NCBI GenBank assembly: GCA_021783135.1
Contig: JAJXUE010000007.1
Location: forward strand, 15,136 to 79,135
Direction: 5' to 3'
DNA length: 64,000 nt
From: Bacillota bacterium
Lineage (GTDB): Bacteria > Bacillota > Desulfitobacteriia > Desulfitobacteriales > JAJXUE01
Part shown: positions 49,441 to 51,239 of the stretch, piece after piece
Layout of the letters: each line of letters starts with the position of its first letter
Position numbering within the stretch: position 1 is the stretch's first letter
The notes under the pieces: model-generated
Told to the model about the DNA's origin: nothing
The model's database searches: none
The model's input: the letters and a program-made list of their open reading frames with translations, nothing else
Program-made: the position numbers and the translations under genes

Positions 49441-49580
49441 ATGAGTAAAATGTTTTCATTGGTAGCACCAAGAATATAGTATGGAACAGCATTTGCTTTC
49501 CAAGATCTTATTTTCTAGGAATGACTTTTCTCTCTCATAGCAAGACCTTTGGCAATCACCGATTGCACTACCGATGAACA

Positions 49581-49985
49581 TCAGCCACCGGCAGGATTTT
49601 TAGTCAGACATTCACACCCTGTATTGGCTCCCGTATGCCTCTTAATATCTTCCAATGTTGAACAGCATTGTGCTTCAGCTACATGATATAAGATCTCCTC
49701 CTCCTTAACATTTGCACAGTAACAAATTGGAATTGGGGGAGGAACGTTTTTAAACCAAATCTTGTTGACCAATTGGTCTTGACTAATGGTCATCTTACTG
49801 TTTTGTGTGTAATAAGCGACTTCACATTCGGGAGTTCTACACAAGAAAAAATGTTCTTCTTCTTCAATTTCAACGCCAGGTTGTACCTGATGTTCAACTG
49901 TTTCCTTACGTACTTTCTGCCCTATCCCATTACAAACAGGGCAATCCGGAATTACTTTTGAATTTGCGGATAGTTCAATAATCAT
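49581..49985 (-). CDS. Cysteine-rich metal-binding protein: N-terminal Zn-ribbon-like CxxC...CxxxC plus C-terminal BFD-like CxC...CxC (CopZ N-terminal-domain-like)
   Basis: CPVCNG...CRTPEC, then ICYCANV...(about 30 aa)...GCEC. The architecture is as recalled for the A. fulgidus CopZ N-domain family. TTG 49991 is an alternative start. Confidence 0.55.
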   Translation of the reverse strand: MIIELSANSKVIPDCPVCNGIGQKVRKETVEHQVQPGVEIEEEEHFFLCRTPECEVAYYTQNSKMTISQDQLVNKIWFKNVPPPIPICYCANVKEEEILYHVAEAQCCSTLEDIKRHTGANTGCECLTKNPAGG

Positions 49986-50061
49986 GAGCAAACACTTCTT
50001 TCACAACAACTTGCGTGTATTTAATTGACCTCCAGTTTTTGTCCTTCGGTTGATAGATCTT

Positions 50062-50091
50062 TTTGAAAAAGACCGGGAAACTATCCCGGCC
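50062..50091 (-). terminator. Intrinsic terminator after the thioredoxin-like gene (minus strand)
   Basis: On the minus strand: GGCCGGGATAGTTTCCCGGTC followed by TTTTT. Confidence 0.55.
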
Positions 50092-50127
50092 CATACAATT
50101 AAAATAAATCGTTCTTGGCGTTTACAT

Positions 50128-50400
50128 TTATTGACCTAGTCCGGCTCTTTTTAGTGTTTCATAGTCAATTCCCCTGTTGCTGCAGCAATCCACTAACTTT
50201 CCGTTGATAGCAACGGCAGGAACCGATTTAACGCCGTACTGCTCGGCCTTTTCAACGCATTCATTAGTATCACACTTTTTGTTTAAGTCGTATACCTTCA
50301 CTTCGCAGTTGGGACAAGCTAGAGTCTTTATTTCTTTTACAGCATTCTCACAGATGTAGCAACCAGCCGTAAAAATTTCAATCAGCCTCTTGTTAGCCAT
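50128..50400 (-). CDS. Thioredoxin-fold small redox protein (MTH895/Thioredoxin_3-like), Cys-rich
   Basis: 90 aa with CYIC and CPNC motifs plus four more Cys residues and the SVPAVAINGK pattern. ATG 50400 lies 6 nt after AAGGAGGTG and overlaps the merR stop. Confidence 0.65.
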   Translation of the reverse strand: MANKRLIEIFTAGCYICENAVKEIKTLACPNCEVKVYDLNKKCDTNECVEKAEQYGVKSVPAVAINGKLVDCCSNRGIDYETLKRAGLGQ

Positions 50401-50809
50401 TTTCCTCACCTCCTTCCGACAACCTTTCTACAATAGGACAACTATGAACAGGCCCTTGGTCGGGACATCTGCTCGATAAATCTTGTAGAACGCTTTTGAT
50501 GCTTTGTAGGTCACGTATTTTGGACTCTATCTCCTTTATCTTTTGTGAGGCAAATAGCCGAACTTCCCGACAACCAGAACTTTCGCTCTCAGTTATACTA
50601 AGAAGTTTTTTAATTACCGAAAGAGTAAACCCTAAATCTTGAGAGCGTTTTATGAACCTAATTCGCTGAATCACTTCAGGTGGAAAGATTCGGTAACCAG
50701 ATTTTGTTCGTGGGGGTTCCGATATCAAGCCTAATCTTTCATAATACCTAATCGTCTCGATATTTACGCCAGCGTTTTTAGCTAATTCGCTAATAGTCAG
50801 TCCATTCAT
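50393..50809 (-). CDS. merR: MerR-family metal-responsive regulator with Hg(II)-type cysteine triad
   Basis: HTH LTISELAKNAGVNIETIRYYERLGLI. Cys80, Cys115 and Cys124 have spacings of 35 and 9, identical to the recalled MerR triads (Tn501 C82/C117/C126; Bacillus C79/C114/C123). Confidence 0.8.
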   Translation of the reverse strand: MNGLTISELAKNAGVNIETIRYYERLGLISEPPRTKSGYRIFPPEVIQRIRFIKRSQDLGFTLSVIKKLLSITESESSGCREVRLFASQKIKEIESKIRDLQSIKSVLQDLSSRCPDQGPVHSCPIVERLSEGGEENG

Positions 50810-50828
50810 TTGCTCACCTCACATGTCT

Positions 50829-50860
50829 AGTATAAAGTCTGTAGTTAGGTACGGTGTCAA
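50829..50860 (-). promoter_or_regulatory. MerR-type promoter with over-long spacer (TTGACA, 20 nt, TATACT)
   Basis: The minus strand reads TTGACA CCGTACCTAACTACAGACTT TATACT, 19 nt upstream of the merR ATG. A 19-20 bp spacer is the hallmark of MerR-activated promoters. Confidence 0.6.
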
Positions 50861-50928: not shown

Positions 50929-51239
50929 GAGTTCAAGGCTGCCCTTAAACATGAAGAATGCACAGACCTTGACTGGGCAGCAGACATTTCGCAAAACCTT
51001 GGCTGTTATGACTTTTATTTCTCACTGACATCACCGGAGGAATATGGCGTGCGCACATTACAGGCAGCGGATATATGAATTCCCTTGAACCGGTATTATG
51101 CTGTTTTGACTTTGAGCAGTACGGAAGGGATCAGATAGCAGCCGGGGGTACAGTGACAACAGAATATGGTATGATTGCCCGCAATGAAAAGGAATTTTAC
51201 TTCGACTACTATACCCCGCCGTCTACACGCAGCAATTGA
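50929..51239 (+). pseudogene. 5'-truncated, frameshifted remnant of an ArdA-like gene
   Basis: EFKAALKHEECTDLDWAADISQNLGCYDFYFSLTSPEEYG...* (stop 51076-78), then in another frame ...CCFDFEQYGRDQIAAGGTVTTEYGMIARNEKEFYFDY. This is colinear with the C-terminus of the ORF at 62840 (KYKAALQYEYCTDLDLAIDIAQNLDCYSFYSSLCSPEDYG...FLDFRQYGEAKMKEHGVKFTDYGLICRNEKEFVFEF). Confidence 0.75.

What the first reader, a model, noticed from the sequence alone, without database searches (positions are those of the whole stretch)
49581..50860. Hg(II)-type MerR sensor controlling only two small cysteine-rich proteins: no merA, merT/P or merB
The regulator has the exact Cys triad spacing of mercury MerR (C80, C115, C124, with spacings of 35 and 9). 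It sits first in its operon behind a promoter with a 20-bp spacer, as in Gram-positive mer operons. The co-transcribed partner is a 90-aa thioredoxin-fold protein with eight Cys (CYIC, CPNC, CC). After a terminator comes a 134-aa Zn-ribbon plus BFD-like CxC...CxC protein resembling the [2Fe-2S]/Zn N-domain of archaeal CopZ. No reductase or transporter is present anywhere in the visible island. This could be a minimal thiol-based sequestration or buffering module for soft metals (Hg, Cd, Cu, Au). It could also be a metal-triggered redox switch that the element uses as an environmental signal. Neither arrangement is a classical mer operon.
Basis: partly seen in the sequence, partly recalled or inferred. 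Interest (0 to 1): 0.55.

Follow-up and report, generated by a model that had tools for sequence, protein, structure and literature searches.

The report
Mercury sensor operon without a reductase
A mercury-type MerR switch on a mobile element of a sulfate-reducing Desulfosporosinus drives only itself and a small cysteine-rich thioredoxin-like protein.

Summary
All three genes are real. The regulator is a Gram-positive Hg(II)-type MerR, with the Cys80/115/124 triad and a canonical mer operator inside a 20-bp-spacer promoter. Its stop overlaps the start of a 90-aa, 8-Cys thioredoxin-fold gene by 8 nt, and a strong terminator follows.

One correction: the third gene is not 134 aa. Its TGA (49583-49581) encodes selenocysteine, so the protein is 156 aa, ends at 49515 and carries a G-x-U-C motif. 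It belongs to an already catalogued CopZ-N-type Zn/[2Fe-2S] selenoprotein family.

No merA, merT, merP, merC or merB lies in the 64-kb window.

In 80 loci from other genomes, a MerR gene flanks the thioredoxin-like gene in 68. A MerC-domain gene lies next to it in 25, and a true MerA lies within 8 kb in only 14-16. MerR-Trx and MerC-Trx fusion proteins exist.

So this is not a decayed mer operon. It is a conserved, modular, mostly reductase-less mercury module. The most likely mechanism is Hg(II)-induced production of a cytosolic Hg(II)-binding chaperone or buffer. The selenoprotein is a looser, separately transcribed companion.

Metal specificity and biochemistry are untested. Novelty: a new variant of a known kind.

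The parts
50829..50860 (-). MerR-type promoter: -35 TTGACA (50860-50855), 20-nt spacer, -10 TATACT (50834-50829). The mer operator half-sites CCGTAC (50854-50849) and CTACAG (50844-50839) lie in the spacer, separated by CTAA.
   Evidence: Sequence read. It is the only match to the operator pattern in the window. The same TTGACy-CyGTAC-N4-GTACrG-...-TATAAT layout, with a 19-20 nt spacer, lies upstream of merR in >40 of 68 homologous loci. It also lies upstream of merA/merT operons in L030, L068 and L079.
50393..50809 (-). merR: Hg(II)-type MerR regulator, 138 aa, with metal-ligand Cys80, Cys115 and Cys124 and an 8-residue loop between the last two.
   Evidence: Pfam MerR_1, MerR-DNA-bind and MerR. 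NCBIfam TIGR02051 MerR scores 155.4 bits against a cutoff of 150.85; the next best are ZntR/CueR/CadR at 100-110 bits. The best solved structure is B. megaterium Hg-MerR 4UA1 at 134.5 bits, versus CadR, PbrR and CueR at about 70. Cys positions.
50128..50400 (-). MerR-coupled 8-Cys thioredoxin-fold gene (90 aa). Its ATG overlaps the merR stop by 8 nt, and a GGAGGTGAGG ribosome-binding site lies inside the merR 3' end.
   Evidence: Pfam Thioredoxin_3 scores 26.3 bits against a cutoff of 24.8. No specific NCBIfam model reaches its cutoff. The AF2 model has pLDDT 79.5 with beta-alpha-beta-alpha-beta-beta-alpha topology, and Foldseek hits are all thioredoxins or glutaredoxins. The family is 49-100% identical across phyla. 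C14, C32, C43 and P61 are invariant, and C17, C29 and C48 are >=90% conserved. There are 291 50%-identity clusters at E<=1e-10.
50066..50092 (-). Intrinsic terminator after the trx gene: GGGCCGGGA-UAGUU-UCCCGGUCU followed by UUUU.
   Evidence: strand folding gives dG -17.4 kcal/mol, z -3.95, and 0 of 200 shuffles fold as well. The simple terminator scan did not list it.
49515..49985 (-). CopZ-N-type Zn-ribbon plus [2Fe-2S]-type selenoprotein, 156 aa, with Sec135 in a G-G-U-C motif.
   Evidence: zf_CopZ 62 bits and Fer2_BFD 28 bits. Read-through aligns with the Cys homologues at ...NPLGKCCSPIIQEAIKKGL. The TGA plus conserved CS[SA]VVQSVIAKGL is present in 4 species. Among 80 metagenome loci, 39 have x-TGA-C and 39 have x-C-C at this site. 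It aligns to A. fulgidus CopZ-NT 2HU9 at ...NPSGRCC. The family is listed as '(2Fe-2S)-binding protein (CopZ family) form 1, GxUC' in PMC13188914.
49581..49583 (-). In-frame UGA read as selenocysteine (codon 135).
49552..49566 (-). Candidate SECIS apical hairpin GCAAUC-GGU-GAUUGC. It starts 14 nt after the UGA, and its loop starts 20 nt after the UGA.
   Evidence: It is the consensus structure of 4 species. All 26 surrounding nucleotides are invariant, including third codon positions, but there is no covariation. No Rfam family matched. This part remains a candidate.

Best explanation
This is a reductase-less, transporter-less mercury-response module. It is carried as cargo between ArdA genes of a conjugative element in Desulfosporosinus (100% protein match to D. 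metallidurans).

Proposed mechanism:
1. Apo-MerR sits on the CCGTAC-N4-CTACAG operator inside the over-long 20-bp spacer and keeps the promoter poised.
2. Hg(II) is bound by Cys80 of one subunit and Cys115/Cys124 of the other.
3. The DNA is under-wound and the bicistronic, translationally coupled merR-trx message is made, up to the terminator.
4. The product is a small cytosolic thioredoxin-fold protein. Its CxxC, second CxxC and vicinal CC capture Hg(II) as a dedicated metallochaperone or buffer. This is functionally like NmerA or MerP, but on a different fold.
5. The protein takes Hg(II) from membrane carriers or from MerR itself. It keeps the metal off cellular thiols and passes it to whatever sink the host has: MerA where present; low-molecular-weight thiols or sulfide in a sulfate reducer; and possibly the neighbouring protein.
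6. That neighbour is a Sec-containing CopZ-N-type Zn/[2Fe-2S] protein. Its U-C pair sits at the position of the CC next to the cluster in archaeal CopZ.

Shown here: gene structures, regulator type, promoter/operator, operon structure, Sec recoding, conservation, neighbourhoods and domain fusions.

Inferred: Hg(II) as the inducer, Hg binding by the Trx-like protein, the direction of any hand-off, and any role of the selenoprotein.
For: Regulator and operator:
- MerR is Hg-type by the curated HMM cutoff, by PDB ranking, and by the Cys triad with an 8-residue loop described for Hg-MerR in PMC4551924.
- The operator/promoter is canonical and conserved across phyla. It matches promoters in front of merA/merT operons in the same genomes.
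- The 8-nt merR/trx overlap plus the terminator define a two-gene transcript.

Linkage in 80 loci from other genomes:
- A MerR gene is directly upstream on the same strand in 39 loci. One MerC-domain gene lies between in 14. MerR is divergent in 10 and downstream in 3.
- A MerC-domain (PF03203) gene lies next to trx in 25 loci.
- MerT/MerP occur in alphaproteobacterial loci.
- In Elusimicrobia, trx follows merA directly (L051, L053).

Domain fusions:
- MerR-Trx fusions: P0228, P0233, P0258 and P0261 confirmed by Pfam, and P0232 by sequence.
- MerC-Trx fusions: P0320 and P0274.
- These tie the protein physically to both the Hg sensor and an Hg carrier.

Other support:
- The stand-alone pair also occurs on a Halobacillus plasmid.
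- MerA-less mer clusters end in a CopZ-N protein: L162 merR-merC-trx-merT-merP-copZN(CC); L122 merR-merB-merTP-copZN(Sec); L091 merR-merT(Sec)-merP(Sec)-copZN(Sec).
- merA-copZN adjacency occurs in Tissierella, Sporosalibacterium and L136.
- MerA is rare in obligate anaerobes (PMC3466566), so a non-reductive strategy is plausible in this host.
Against: - No experiment shows the inducer or any metal binding.
- TIGR02051 is passed only narrowly (155.4 vs 150.85). The MerR-specific second-shell Lys118 of B. megaterium MerR is Gly here (alignment; PMC4551924).
- In 24 of 69 partner MerRs (Bacilli, Tissierellia) the first ligand Cys is Ser and the loop is one residue longer. Part of the family may therefore sense something else.
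- The CC pair is deleted in some Trx members, for example the Staphylococcus and Virgibacillus types.
- Loci with a MerC-like importer but no MerA look paradoxical for a pure sequestration model.
- The rest of the host genome is unseen, so MerA may exist elsewhere.
- The selenoprotein family mostly sits in non-mercury contexts (about 70 of 80 loci).
- The selenoprotein gene is knocked out by a TAA codon in two variants of this same element.
Confidence: 0.5

Rival explanations
1. The pair is an accessory arm of a complete mer system encoded elsewhere in the genome. The Trx-like protein is an NmerA-like feeder that delivers Hg(II) to a distant MerA. The module is then not reductase-independent.
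For: A true MerA with the C-terminal CC lies within 8 kb of trx in 14 loci, with partial MerA genes in 2 more (L041, L062), out of 80. trx lies immediately after merA in L051 and L053. Several of these MerAs lack the NmerA domain: 466-488 aa in L020, L023, L024, L051, L053 and L057. Genomes with both systems keep a second MerR for the merA operon.
Against: About 80% of loci have no MerA within 8 kb. MerA is rare in obligate anaerobes (PMC3466566). The whole-genome MerA content of the hosts could not be examined with these tools.
Confidence: 0.2
2. The Trx-like protein is a thiol-disulfide oxidoreductase working on MerR or on Hg-damaged proteins. It would keep or reset the sensor cysteines, strip Hg from MerR to switch the promoter off, or repair oxidised thiols after metal stress. 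It would not act as a metal store.
For: The classical CxxC sits at the N-terminus of helix 1 and the cis-Pro61 is invariant in a Trx fold. MerR-Trx fusions occur in five separate 50%-identity clusters. merR and trx are translationally coupled at about 1:1.
Against: Six further conserved Cys, including a second CxxC and a vicinal CC, are not needed for redox catalysis and are typical of metal sites. The MerC-Trx fusions point to metal hand-off at the membrane.
Confidence: 0.15
3. The module senses and handles a different soft metal (Cd, Pb, Zn, Cu, Ag or Au) rather than mercury.
For: From memory, the 35/9 Cys spacing is shared by PbrR/CadR-type regulators. The CadR-PbrR, ZntR and CueR models score 100-110 bits. 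The Ser-for-Cys80 variants in Bacilli resemble monovalent-ion sensors. Neighbours often include P-type ATPases (12 loci), CDF-like genes (7), ArsR (16) and ars genes.
Against: Only the MerR equivalog model passes its cutoff. The Hg-MerR structure is by far the best PDB hit. The operator equals those of merA/merT operons. The gene-level partners that are fused or adjacent are mer-specific: MerC, MerT, MerP, MerA and MerB.
Confidence: 0.08
4. The cassette is a decayed remnant of a classical mer operon that lost merT, merP and merA.
For: It is cargo in a variable slot of a mobile element. A 54-aa ORF at 51075-51239 is a probable remnant of an ArdA-family gene. The slot content differs in L002. 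The copZN gene is a pseudogene in two variants.
Against: merR and trx are intact. They are 49-100% conserved over many phyla with invariant Cys and Pro. The same two-gene unit recurs as such in 39 of 80 loci with its promoter intact. There are no mer gene fragments in the window.
Confidence: 0.04
5. The conjugative element uses the module as a metal or redox signal to control its own transfer.
For: The module lies between anti-restriction (ArdA) genes and next to Tad/T4SS-like transfer genes.
Against: There is only one operator site in the 64-kb window, in front of merR itself. The same pair occurs in unrelated plasmids and chromosomal metal islands.
Confidence: 0.03

Closest known systems
Gram-positive mer operons (Bacillus RC607/TnMERI1-type, B. 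megaterium MerR 4UA1)
   Same: merR is the first gene and is co-transcribed with its targets. It has the Cys79/114/123-type triad with an 8-residue loop. The mer operator dyad lies inside a 19-20 bp spacer. The regulator is the best PDB match.
   Different: No merE/T/P transport genes and no merA or merB. The only co-transcribed gene is an 8-Cys thioredoxin-fold protein that is not part of described mer operons. No description was found.
NmerA / MerP (HMA-fold Hg(II) carriers)
   Same: The proposed role is the same: a small Cys-based protein that takes Hg(II) from transporters or other proteins and passes it on. Like NmerA, which is fused to MerA, the Trx-like domain is found fused to its presumed partners MerC and MerR.
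   Different: A thioredoxin fold rather than the ferredoxin-like HMA fold. It has six to eight Cys instead of one CxxC. No biochemistry exists.
Small archaeal-type thioredoxins: Thioredoxin_3 (PF13192), MJ0307, MTH895/ArsE families
   Same: Same minimal Trx fold, CxxC and cis-Pro. These are the weak best sequence hits: 1FO5, 1NHO and 2K8S.
   Different: It scores far below the curated cutoffs of those NCBIfam families (26.9 vs 92.75; 21.1 vs 62). It has an extra CxxC, C43/C48 and a CC pair, and has obligate MerR linkage.
Archaeoglobus fulgidus CopZ N-terminal domain (2HU9) and the '(2Fe-2S)-binding protein (CopZ family) form 1' selenoprotein family
   Same: Four-Cys Zn ribbon, CxC...C...C cluster motif and the C-terminal pair after NP-x-G. 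The GxUC Sec motif is as listed in PMC13188914 and PMC9312934.
   Different: It is stand-alone, with no C-terminal HMA CopZ domain. It has Sec instead of the first Cys of the CC pair. Here and in about 10 of 80 loci it is linked to mer genes rather than copper genes. It scores below the NF045877 'form 2' cutoff (106.8 vs 190).
CU-motif selenoproteins of heavy-metal systems (MerT-family selenoproteins, SAO system, HgcA)
   Same: Sec sits next to Cys at a presumed metal site. The related locus L091 carries MerT-like (C-U) and MerP-like (UxxC) ORFs next to a 76%-identical MerR.
   Different: The order here is U-C, not C-U. The protein is cytosolic and cluster-binding.

Membership tests
Hg(II)-responsive MerR (NCBIfam TIGR02051) | N-terminal MerR-type winged HTH plus a coiled-coil dimerisation helix | tested here: met
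   PF13411 69 bits, PF09278 63 bits, PF00376 56 bits.
Hg(II)-responsive MerR (NCBIfam TIGR02051) | Three Hg-ligand cysteines (Cys79/114/123 in Bacillus numbering) with an 8-residue loop between the last two | tested here: met
   Cys80, Cys115 and Cys124, aligned to the 4UA1 cysteines. Loop rule from PMC4551924.
Hg(II)-responsive MerR (NCBIfam TIGR02051) | Score above the curated equivalog cutoff and above rival metal-sensor models | tested here: met
   155.4 bits against a cutoff of 150.85, so a narrow pass. ZntR, CueR and CadR score 100-110 bits, all below their own cutoffs.
Hg(II)-responsive MerR (NCBIfam TIGR02051) | Dyad operator inside a promoter with a 19-20 bp spacer | tested here: met
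   TTGACA-CCGTAC-CTAA-CTACAG-ACTT-TATACT with a 20-nt spacer. The layout is conserved in homologues and equals merA/merT promoters. The dyad here is imperfect, matching at 4 of 6 positions.
Hg(II)-responsive MerR (NCBIfam TIGR02051) | MerR-specific second-shell Lys (Lys118 in B. megaterium) | tested here: not met
   Gly119 occupies this position in the window protein (alignment; PMC4551924). This is a minor feature and not one that defines membership.
Hg(II)-responsive MerR (NCBIfam TIGR02051) | Hg(II)-dependent activation of transcription | not testable with these tools
   Needs a reporter or in vitro transcription assay.
Classical mer operon | Mercuric reductase merA under MerR control | tested here: not met
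   No MerA homologue in the 64-kb window. MerA lies within 8 kb in only 14-16 of 80 homologous loci.
Classical mer operon | Hg(II) uptake genes (merT/P/C/E/F) | tested here: not met
   None in the window. A MerC-domain gene lies next to trx in 25 loci elsewhere.
Thioredoxin_3 / MJ0307 / MTH895-ArsE small thioredoxins | Trx fold with CxxC at the start of helix 1 and a cis-Pro before strand 3 | tested here: met
   PF13192 26.3 bits against a cutoff of 24.8. AF2 topology. Foldseek hits are all Trx or Grx. C14 and P61 are invariant, and C17 is conserved in at least 90% of members.
Thioredoxin_3 / MJ0307 / MTH895-ArsE small thioredoxins | Score above the curated cutoffs of TIGR00411 or TIGR00412 | tested here: not met
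   26.9 vs 92.75 and 21.1 vs 62. It is a separate family without a curated model.
(2Fe-2S)-binding protein, CopZ family, selenoprotein form 1 (GxUC) | zf_CopZ Zn ribbon plus BFD-like cluster motif | tested here: met
   PF18423 62 bits and PF04324 28 bits. 2HU9 at E 8e-22 with the family profile.
(2Fe-2S)-binding protein, CopZ family, selenoprotein form 1 (GxUC) | In-frame UGA aligned with Cys of homologues, coding conservation after it, and a G-x-U-C motif | tested here: met
   (39 loci with TGA versus 39 with Cys). Motif as listed in PMC13188914.
(2Fe-2S)-binding protein, CopZ family, selenoprotein form 1 (GxUC) | SECIS element downstream of the UGA | tested here: inconclusive
   The invariant hairpin GCAAUC-GGU-GAUUGC at 49566-49552 is the consensus fold of 4 species, but it shows no covariation and has no Rfam match.
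(2Fe-2S)-binding protein, CopZ family, selenoprotein form 1 (GxUC) | Actual Sec incorporation and metal or cluster content | not testable with these tools
   Needs 75Se labelling or mass spectrometry, plus UV-vis and EPR.
Csac_0668 family (NF045877, 'form 2', CU) | Score above the curated cutoff | tested here: not met
   106.8 bits against a cutoff of 190 for the full-length protein with U read as C. The Tissierella homologue passes at 236.8.

The most novel reading that the evidence does not exclude
The 8-Cys thioredoxin-fold family is an unrecognised, cross-phylum mercury metallochaperone. It works directly with MerR and MerC and underlies a reductase-independent mercury strategy that is common in anaerobes. 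In that strategy the CopZ-N-type CC/UC Zn/[2Fe-2S] proteins occupy the place of MerA at the end of merR-merT-merP clusters. There they would act as the terminal Hg sink through Hg-Se/S bonding, or as an iron-sulfur-driven alternative to the flavoenzyme.
Probability: 0.2. Interest if true: 0.8.

Novelty: new variant of a known kind. Interest (0 to 1): 0.6.

Why it matters
Mercury resistance is usually equated with MerA. Yet MerA is rare in obligate anaerobes, and many genomes carry MerB or Hg transporters without it. How those cells cope with cytosolic Hg(II) is an open question (PMC8261052, PMC3466566).

A conserved MerR-driven Cys-rich thioredoxin-fold protein that is fused in some genomes to MerR or MerC would be a concrete, testable candidate for that missing handling step. 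It would also be a new gene to score in mer surveys.

The host belongs to Desulfosporosinus, a sulfate-reducing genus of metal-rich acidic sites. The module is also on a conjugative element, so it can spread.

Recognising the third gene as a selenoprotein corrects a systematic mis-annotation: most database entries for this family stop at about 133 aa. It also places a Sec-Cys pair next to a mercury sensor, which is chemically suggestive because Hg binds selenium extremely tightly.

Tried and rejected
- **SECIS search.** The Rfam scan of 49450-49650 gave only noise. My first SECIS guess (UCAUCGGU-AGUGCA-AUCGGUGA) is not conserved in other species. I replaced it with the invariant GCAAUC-GGU-GAUUGC hairpin.
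- **Promoter and terminator scans.** The consensus scan did not list the trx terminator and found no sigma-70 promoter for the selenoprotein gene. The terminator was shown by folding.
- **Second operator.** A search for a second MerR operator in the window found none.
- **Plasmid collection.** It held only two weak relatives. One was informative (Halobacillus merR-trx alone). The other was a truncated merR fragment next to a real mer operon.
- **Structure.** Coordinates of the predicted model are not exposed, so Cys-Cys distances could not be measured. Foldseek gave only generic Trx/Grx hits.
- **Literature.** Searches found no description of a MerR-coupled thioredoxin-like mer gene. The original CopZ-NT structure paper (PMC2859431) is not held, so the identity of the cluster ligands rests on my memory.
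- **tRNA.** No tRNA, including tRNA-Sec, lies in the window.
- **Rejected readings.** A decayed operon, signalling for the mobile element, and the 134-aa length of the third gene.
Full report
**1. What is in the sequence**

Three minus-strand genes occupy 49515-50860.

*merR.* merR (50393-50809) encodes 138 aa with Cys at 80, 115 and 124. Pfam finds the three MerR domains. The NCBIfam equivalog model for mercury MerR (TIGR02051) scores 155.4 bits, just over its cutoff of 150.85. The ZntR, CueR and CadR/PbrR models score 100-110 bits and fail their cutoffs.

Against solved structures, the Hg(II)-MerR of Bacillus megaterium (4UA1) is the top hit at 134.5 bits. Tn501 MerR follows at 84.9 bits, and CadR, PbrR and CueR score about 70. 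The three cysteines align with Cys79/114/123 of that protein. The 8-residue loop between the last two is the length said to fit trigonal Hg(II) (PMC4551924). One second-shell residue, Lys118, is Gly here.

*Promoter.* Upstream lies TTGACA, a 20-nt spacer, then TATACT (50860-50829). The half-sites CCGTAC and CTACAG sit directly after the -35 hexamer. This is the only such site in the 64-kb window.

*trx.* The ATG of the next gene (50400) overlaps the merR stop by 8 nt and is preceded by GGAGGTGAGG. It encodes 90 aa with eight Cys: C14-x2-C17, C29-x2-C32, C43, C48 and C72-C73.

- Pfam Thioredoxin_3 is just above threshold.
- No curated NCBIfam family is reached.
- An AlphaFold model (pLDDT 79.5) has the minimal thioredoxin topology, and Foldseek finds only thioredoxins and glutaredoxins.
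- A 9-bp hairpin followed by Us (50092-50066; dG -17.4, z -3.95) ends the transcript.

**2. The third gene is a selenoprotein**

That is exactly where Cys-containing homologues read G-K-C-C. Reading the TGA as Sec gives ...NPAGG-U-CSSVVQSVIAKGLAMREKSHS, 156 aa in total. This aligns with ...NPLGKCCSPIIQEAIKKGLEIKE of a Tissierella homologue.

Further evidence for Sec:
- The TGA and the following CS[SA]VVQSVIAKGL are conserved in Paradesulfitobacterium, Desulfitobacterium metallireducens and D. acidiphilus.
- Nearly all database homologues are annotated at about 133 aa and cover only 85% of the full-length query.
- Among 80 metagenomic loci, 39 have x-TGA-C and 39 have x-C-C at this site.
- An invariant hairpin, GCAAUC-GGU-GAUUGC (49566-49552), is the consensus fold of the four species. 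It shows no covariation and has no Rfam match, so it stays a candidate SECIS.

The protein aligns to the Zn/[2Fe-2S] N-terminal domain of A. fulgidus CopZ (2HU9). Sec135 and Cys136 fall on its ...NPSGR-C118-C119. From memory of the structure paper, which I could not read, Cys119 is a cluster ligand.

The family is already listed as '(2Fe-2S)-binding protein (CopZ family) form 1, GxUC' in selenoproteome surveys (PMC13188914 and PMC9312934).

**3. Setting**

The Trx-like protein is 100% identical to one from Desulfosporosinus metallidurans. The cassette lies between ArdA-family genes, next to Tad/T4SS-like transfer genes of a conjugative element. It sits a few kb from chromosomal leucine-biosynthesis genes.

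- The cargo slot varies. One variant (L002) has a methyltransferase, ArsR, an SBF-family transporter and DGC proteins after the selenoprotein gene.
- Two variants (L004, L006) have a TAA nonsense codon at codon 61 of the selenoprotein gene, while merR-trx is intact.
- tblastn with MerA, MerT, MerP, MerC, MerB and CcdA queries finds nothing in the window.

**4. Comparative evidence**

*Conservation.* The Trx-like family is strikingly conserved, at 49-100% identity from Bacillota to Zixibacteria, Elusimicrobia, Bdellovibrionota and Alphaproteobacteria. C14, C32, C43 and P61 are invariant, and C17, C29 and C48 are nearly so. An exhaustive profile search finds 291 50%-identity clusters at E<=1e-10.

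*MerR linkage.* I surveyed 79 species-level genome loci plus one plasmid. A MerR homologue lies:
- directly upstream on the same strand in 39 loci;
- upstream with one gene between in 14;
- divergently adjacent in 10;
- downstream in 3.

*Other mer neighbours.* A MerC-domain gene (PF03203) lies next to trx in 25 loci. These include nearly all of the one-gene-between and divergent arrangements. MerT and MerP occur in alphaproteobacterial loci. A true MerA, with the C-terminal CC, lies within 8 kb in 14 loci, plus two partial copies. In two Elusimicrobia, trx directly follows merA. A Halobacillus plasmid carries merR-trx alone.

*Promoters.* The promoters are alike across phyla: TTGACy, CyGTAC-N4-GTACrG, usually a 20-nt spacer, then TATAAT. 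Promoters of merA and merT operons in the same genomes have the same layout.

*Fusions.* Gene fusions exist:
- MerR-Trx: P0228, P0233, P0258 and P0261, confirmed by Pfam, and P0232 by sequence;
- MerC-Trx: P0320 and P0274;
- a tandem Trx and a receiver-Trx protein.

*Caveat.* In 24 of 69 partner MerRs (Bacilli, Tissierellia) the first ligand Cys is Ser and the loop is one residue longer.

*The selenoprotein family.* It is only partly mercury-linked. About 10 of 80 loci carry mer genes, and other members sit in unrelated contexts. The linked cases are telling:
- L162: merR-merC-trx-merT-merP-copZN(CC).
- L122: merR-merB-merT/P-copZN(Sec).
- L091: a 76%-identical merR, a MerT-like ORF with C-U, an HMA lipoprotein with UxxC, then copZN(Sec).
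- None of these three has merA.
- In Tissierella, Sporosalibacterium and L136, copZN directly follows a MerA that lacks the NmerA domain.

**5. Interpretation**

Shown here:
- a mercury-type MerR with a canonical operator drives a two-gene, translationally coupled transcript;
- its partner is a distinct, widely conserved Cys-rich Trx-fold family tied to MerR, MerC, MerT/P and sometimes MerA by adjacency and by fusion;
- the pair usually lacks a nearby reductase.

Inferred: Hg(II) induces the operon, and the Trx-like protein binds Hg(II) through its CxxC and CC motifs. It would act as a cytosolic chaperone or buffer, like NmerA, which strips Hg from proteins and feeds MerA (Ledwidge 2005, cited in PMC3466566). 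It would exchange metal with carriers and with MerR, and deliver it to whatever sink is present. In a sulfide-producing anaerobe, where MerA is rare (PMC3466566), that sink may be non-enzymatic.

The Sec-Cys pair of the neighbouring protein is an attractive extra sink or redox partner. However, it is separated by a terminator, lacks an operator and is dispensable in some variants.

Rivals, in order of likelihood:
1. an accessory feeder for a MerA elsewhere in the genome;
2. a thiol oxidoreductase that maintains or resets MerR;
3. another metal as the signal;
4. a decayed operon;
5. a signal used by the mobile element.

The last two are poorly supported.

**6. Novelty and verdict**

The regulator type and the selenoprotein family are known. 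What appears undescribed is the MerR-coupled 8-Cys thioredoxin-fold family, its fusions, and the recurring MerA-less mer clusters. Four literature searches and checks of three papers found no description. I class this as a new variant of a known kind. It is of moderate-to-good interest (0.6) because it gives a concrete candidate for mercury handling without MerA. Confidence in the proposed mechanism is 0.5. Every biochemical step remains to be tested.

Noticed in passing
L091 4809-6470 (Paradesulfitobacterium aromaticivorans BAAHYT010000004.1): A MerR 76% identical to the window's is followed by two ORFs with in-frame TGA at metal-site positions. One is a MerT-like membrane protein (...FFAAIC-TGA-LGSVV; PF02411 at 27.9 bits, below the cutoff). 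The other is a lipoprotein with an HMA domain (GFT-TGA-DTC; PF00403 at 28.8 bits). Then come the CopZ-N selenoprotein, CooT and NicO. This would be a triple-selenoprotein, merA-less mer-like cluster on a mobile element.
   Followed up: partly
L004 10416-10886 and L006 919-1389: In two metagenomic variants of the same element, codon 61 of the selenoprotein gene is TAA (CAA in the window), while merR-trx is intact. This suggests the third gene is dispensable there.
   Followed up: yes
L002 11113-17763: A variant of the element carries different cargo after the selenoprotein gene: an ArsM/UbiE-like methyltransferase, an ArsR-type regulator, an SBF-family (possibly Acr3-like) transporter and two DGC-domain proteins, in place of the two ArdA genes. 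The slot looks like a hot spot for metal(loid) cargo.
   Followed up: no
window 51075-51239 (+): A 54-aa ORF resembles the C-terminal part of the neighbouring ArdA-family proteins (37-41% identity over 27-30 aa). It is probably a remnant left when the cassette was inserted.
   Followed up: partly
L010, L018-L031, L041-L060 (Bacilli, Tissierellia): The MerR partners of the Trx-like gene in these lineages have Ser instead of the first ligand Cys and a C-x9-C loop (24 of 69). Their operator is the same. They may bind metal with two thiolates or sense a different ion.
   Followed up: partly
L025, L026, L030, L035, L037, L040-L042, L044: In Bacillaceae and Paenibacillaceae, a 314-aa polytopic membrane protein with no Pfam or NCBIfam match follows trx directly on the same strand (9 loci). 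It may be a transporter that belongs to the module.
   Followed up: partly
L033, L034, L038, L043, L048 and the 226-aa MerC-domain proteins (e.g. L076 178-858): Further small Trx-like/DUF2703-like units with a single 'F-x-G-C-P' Cys occur in these mer-like clusters. They appear either free (110 aa) or fused to the N-terminus of the MerC domain.
   Followed up: no
L122 3709-6420: A merR-merB-merT/merP(fusion)-copZN(Sec) cluster with no merA. It is an example of MerB without MerA, where the Hg(II) released would need another sink.
   Followed up: partly
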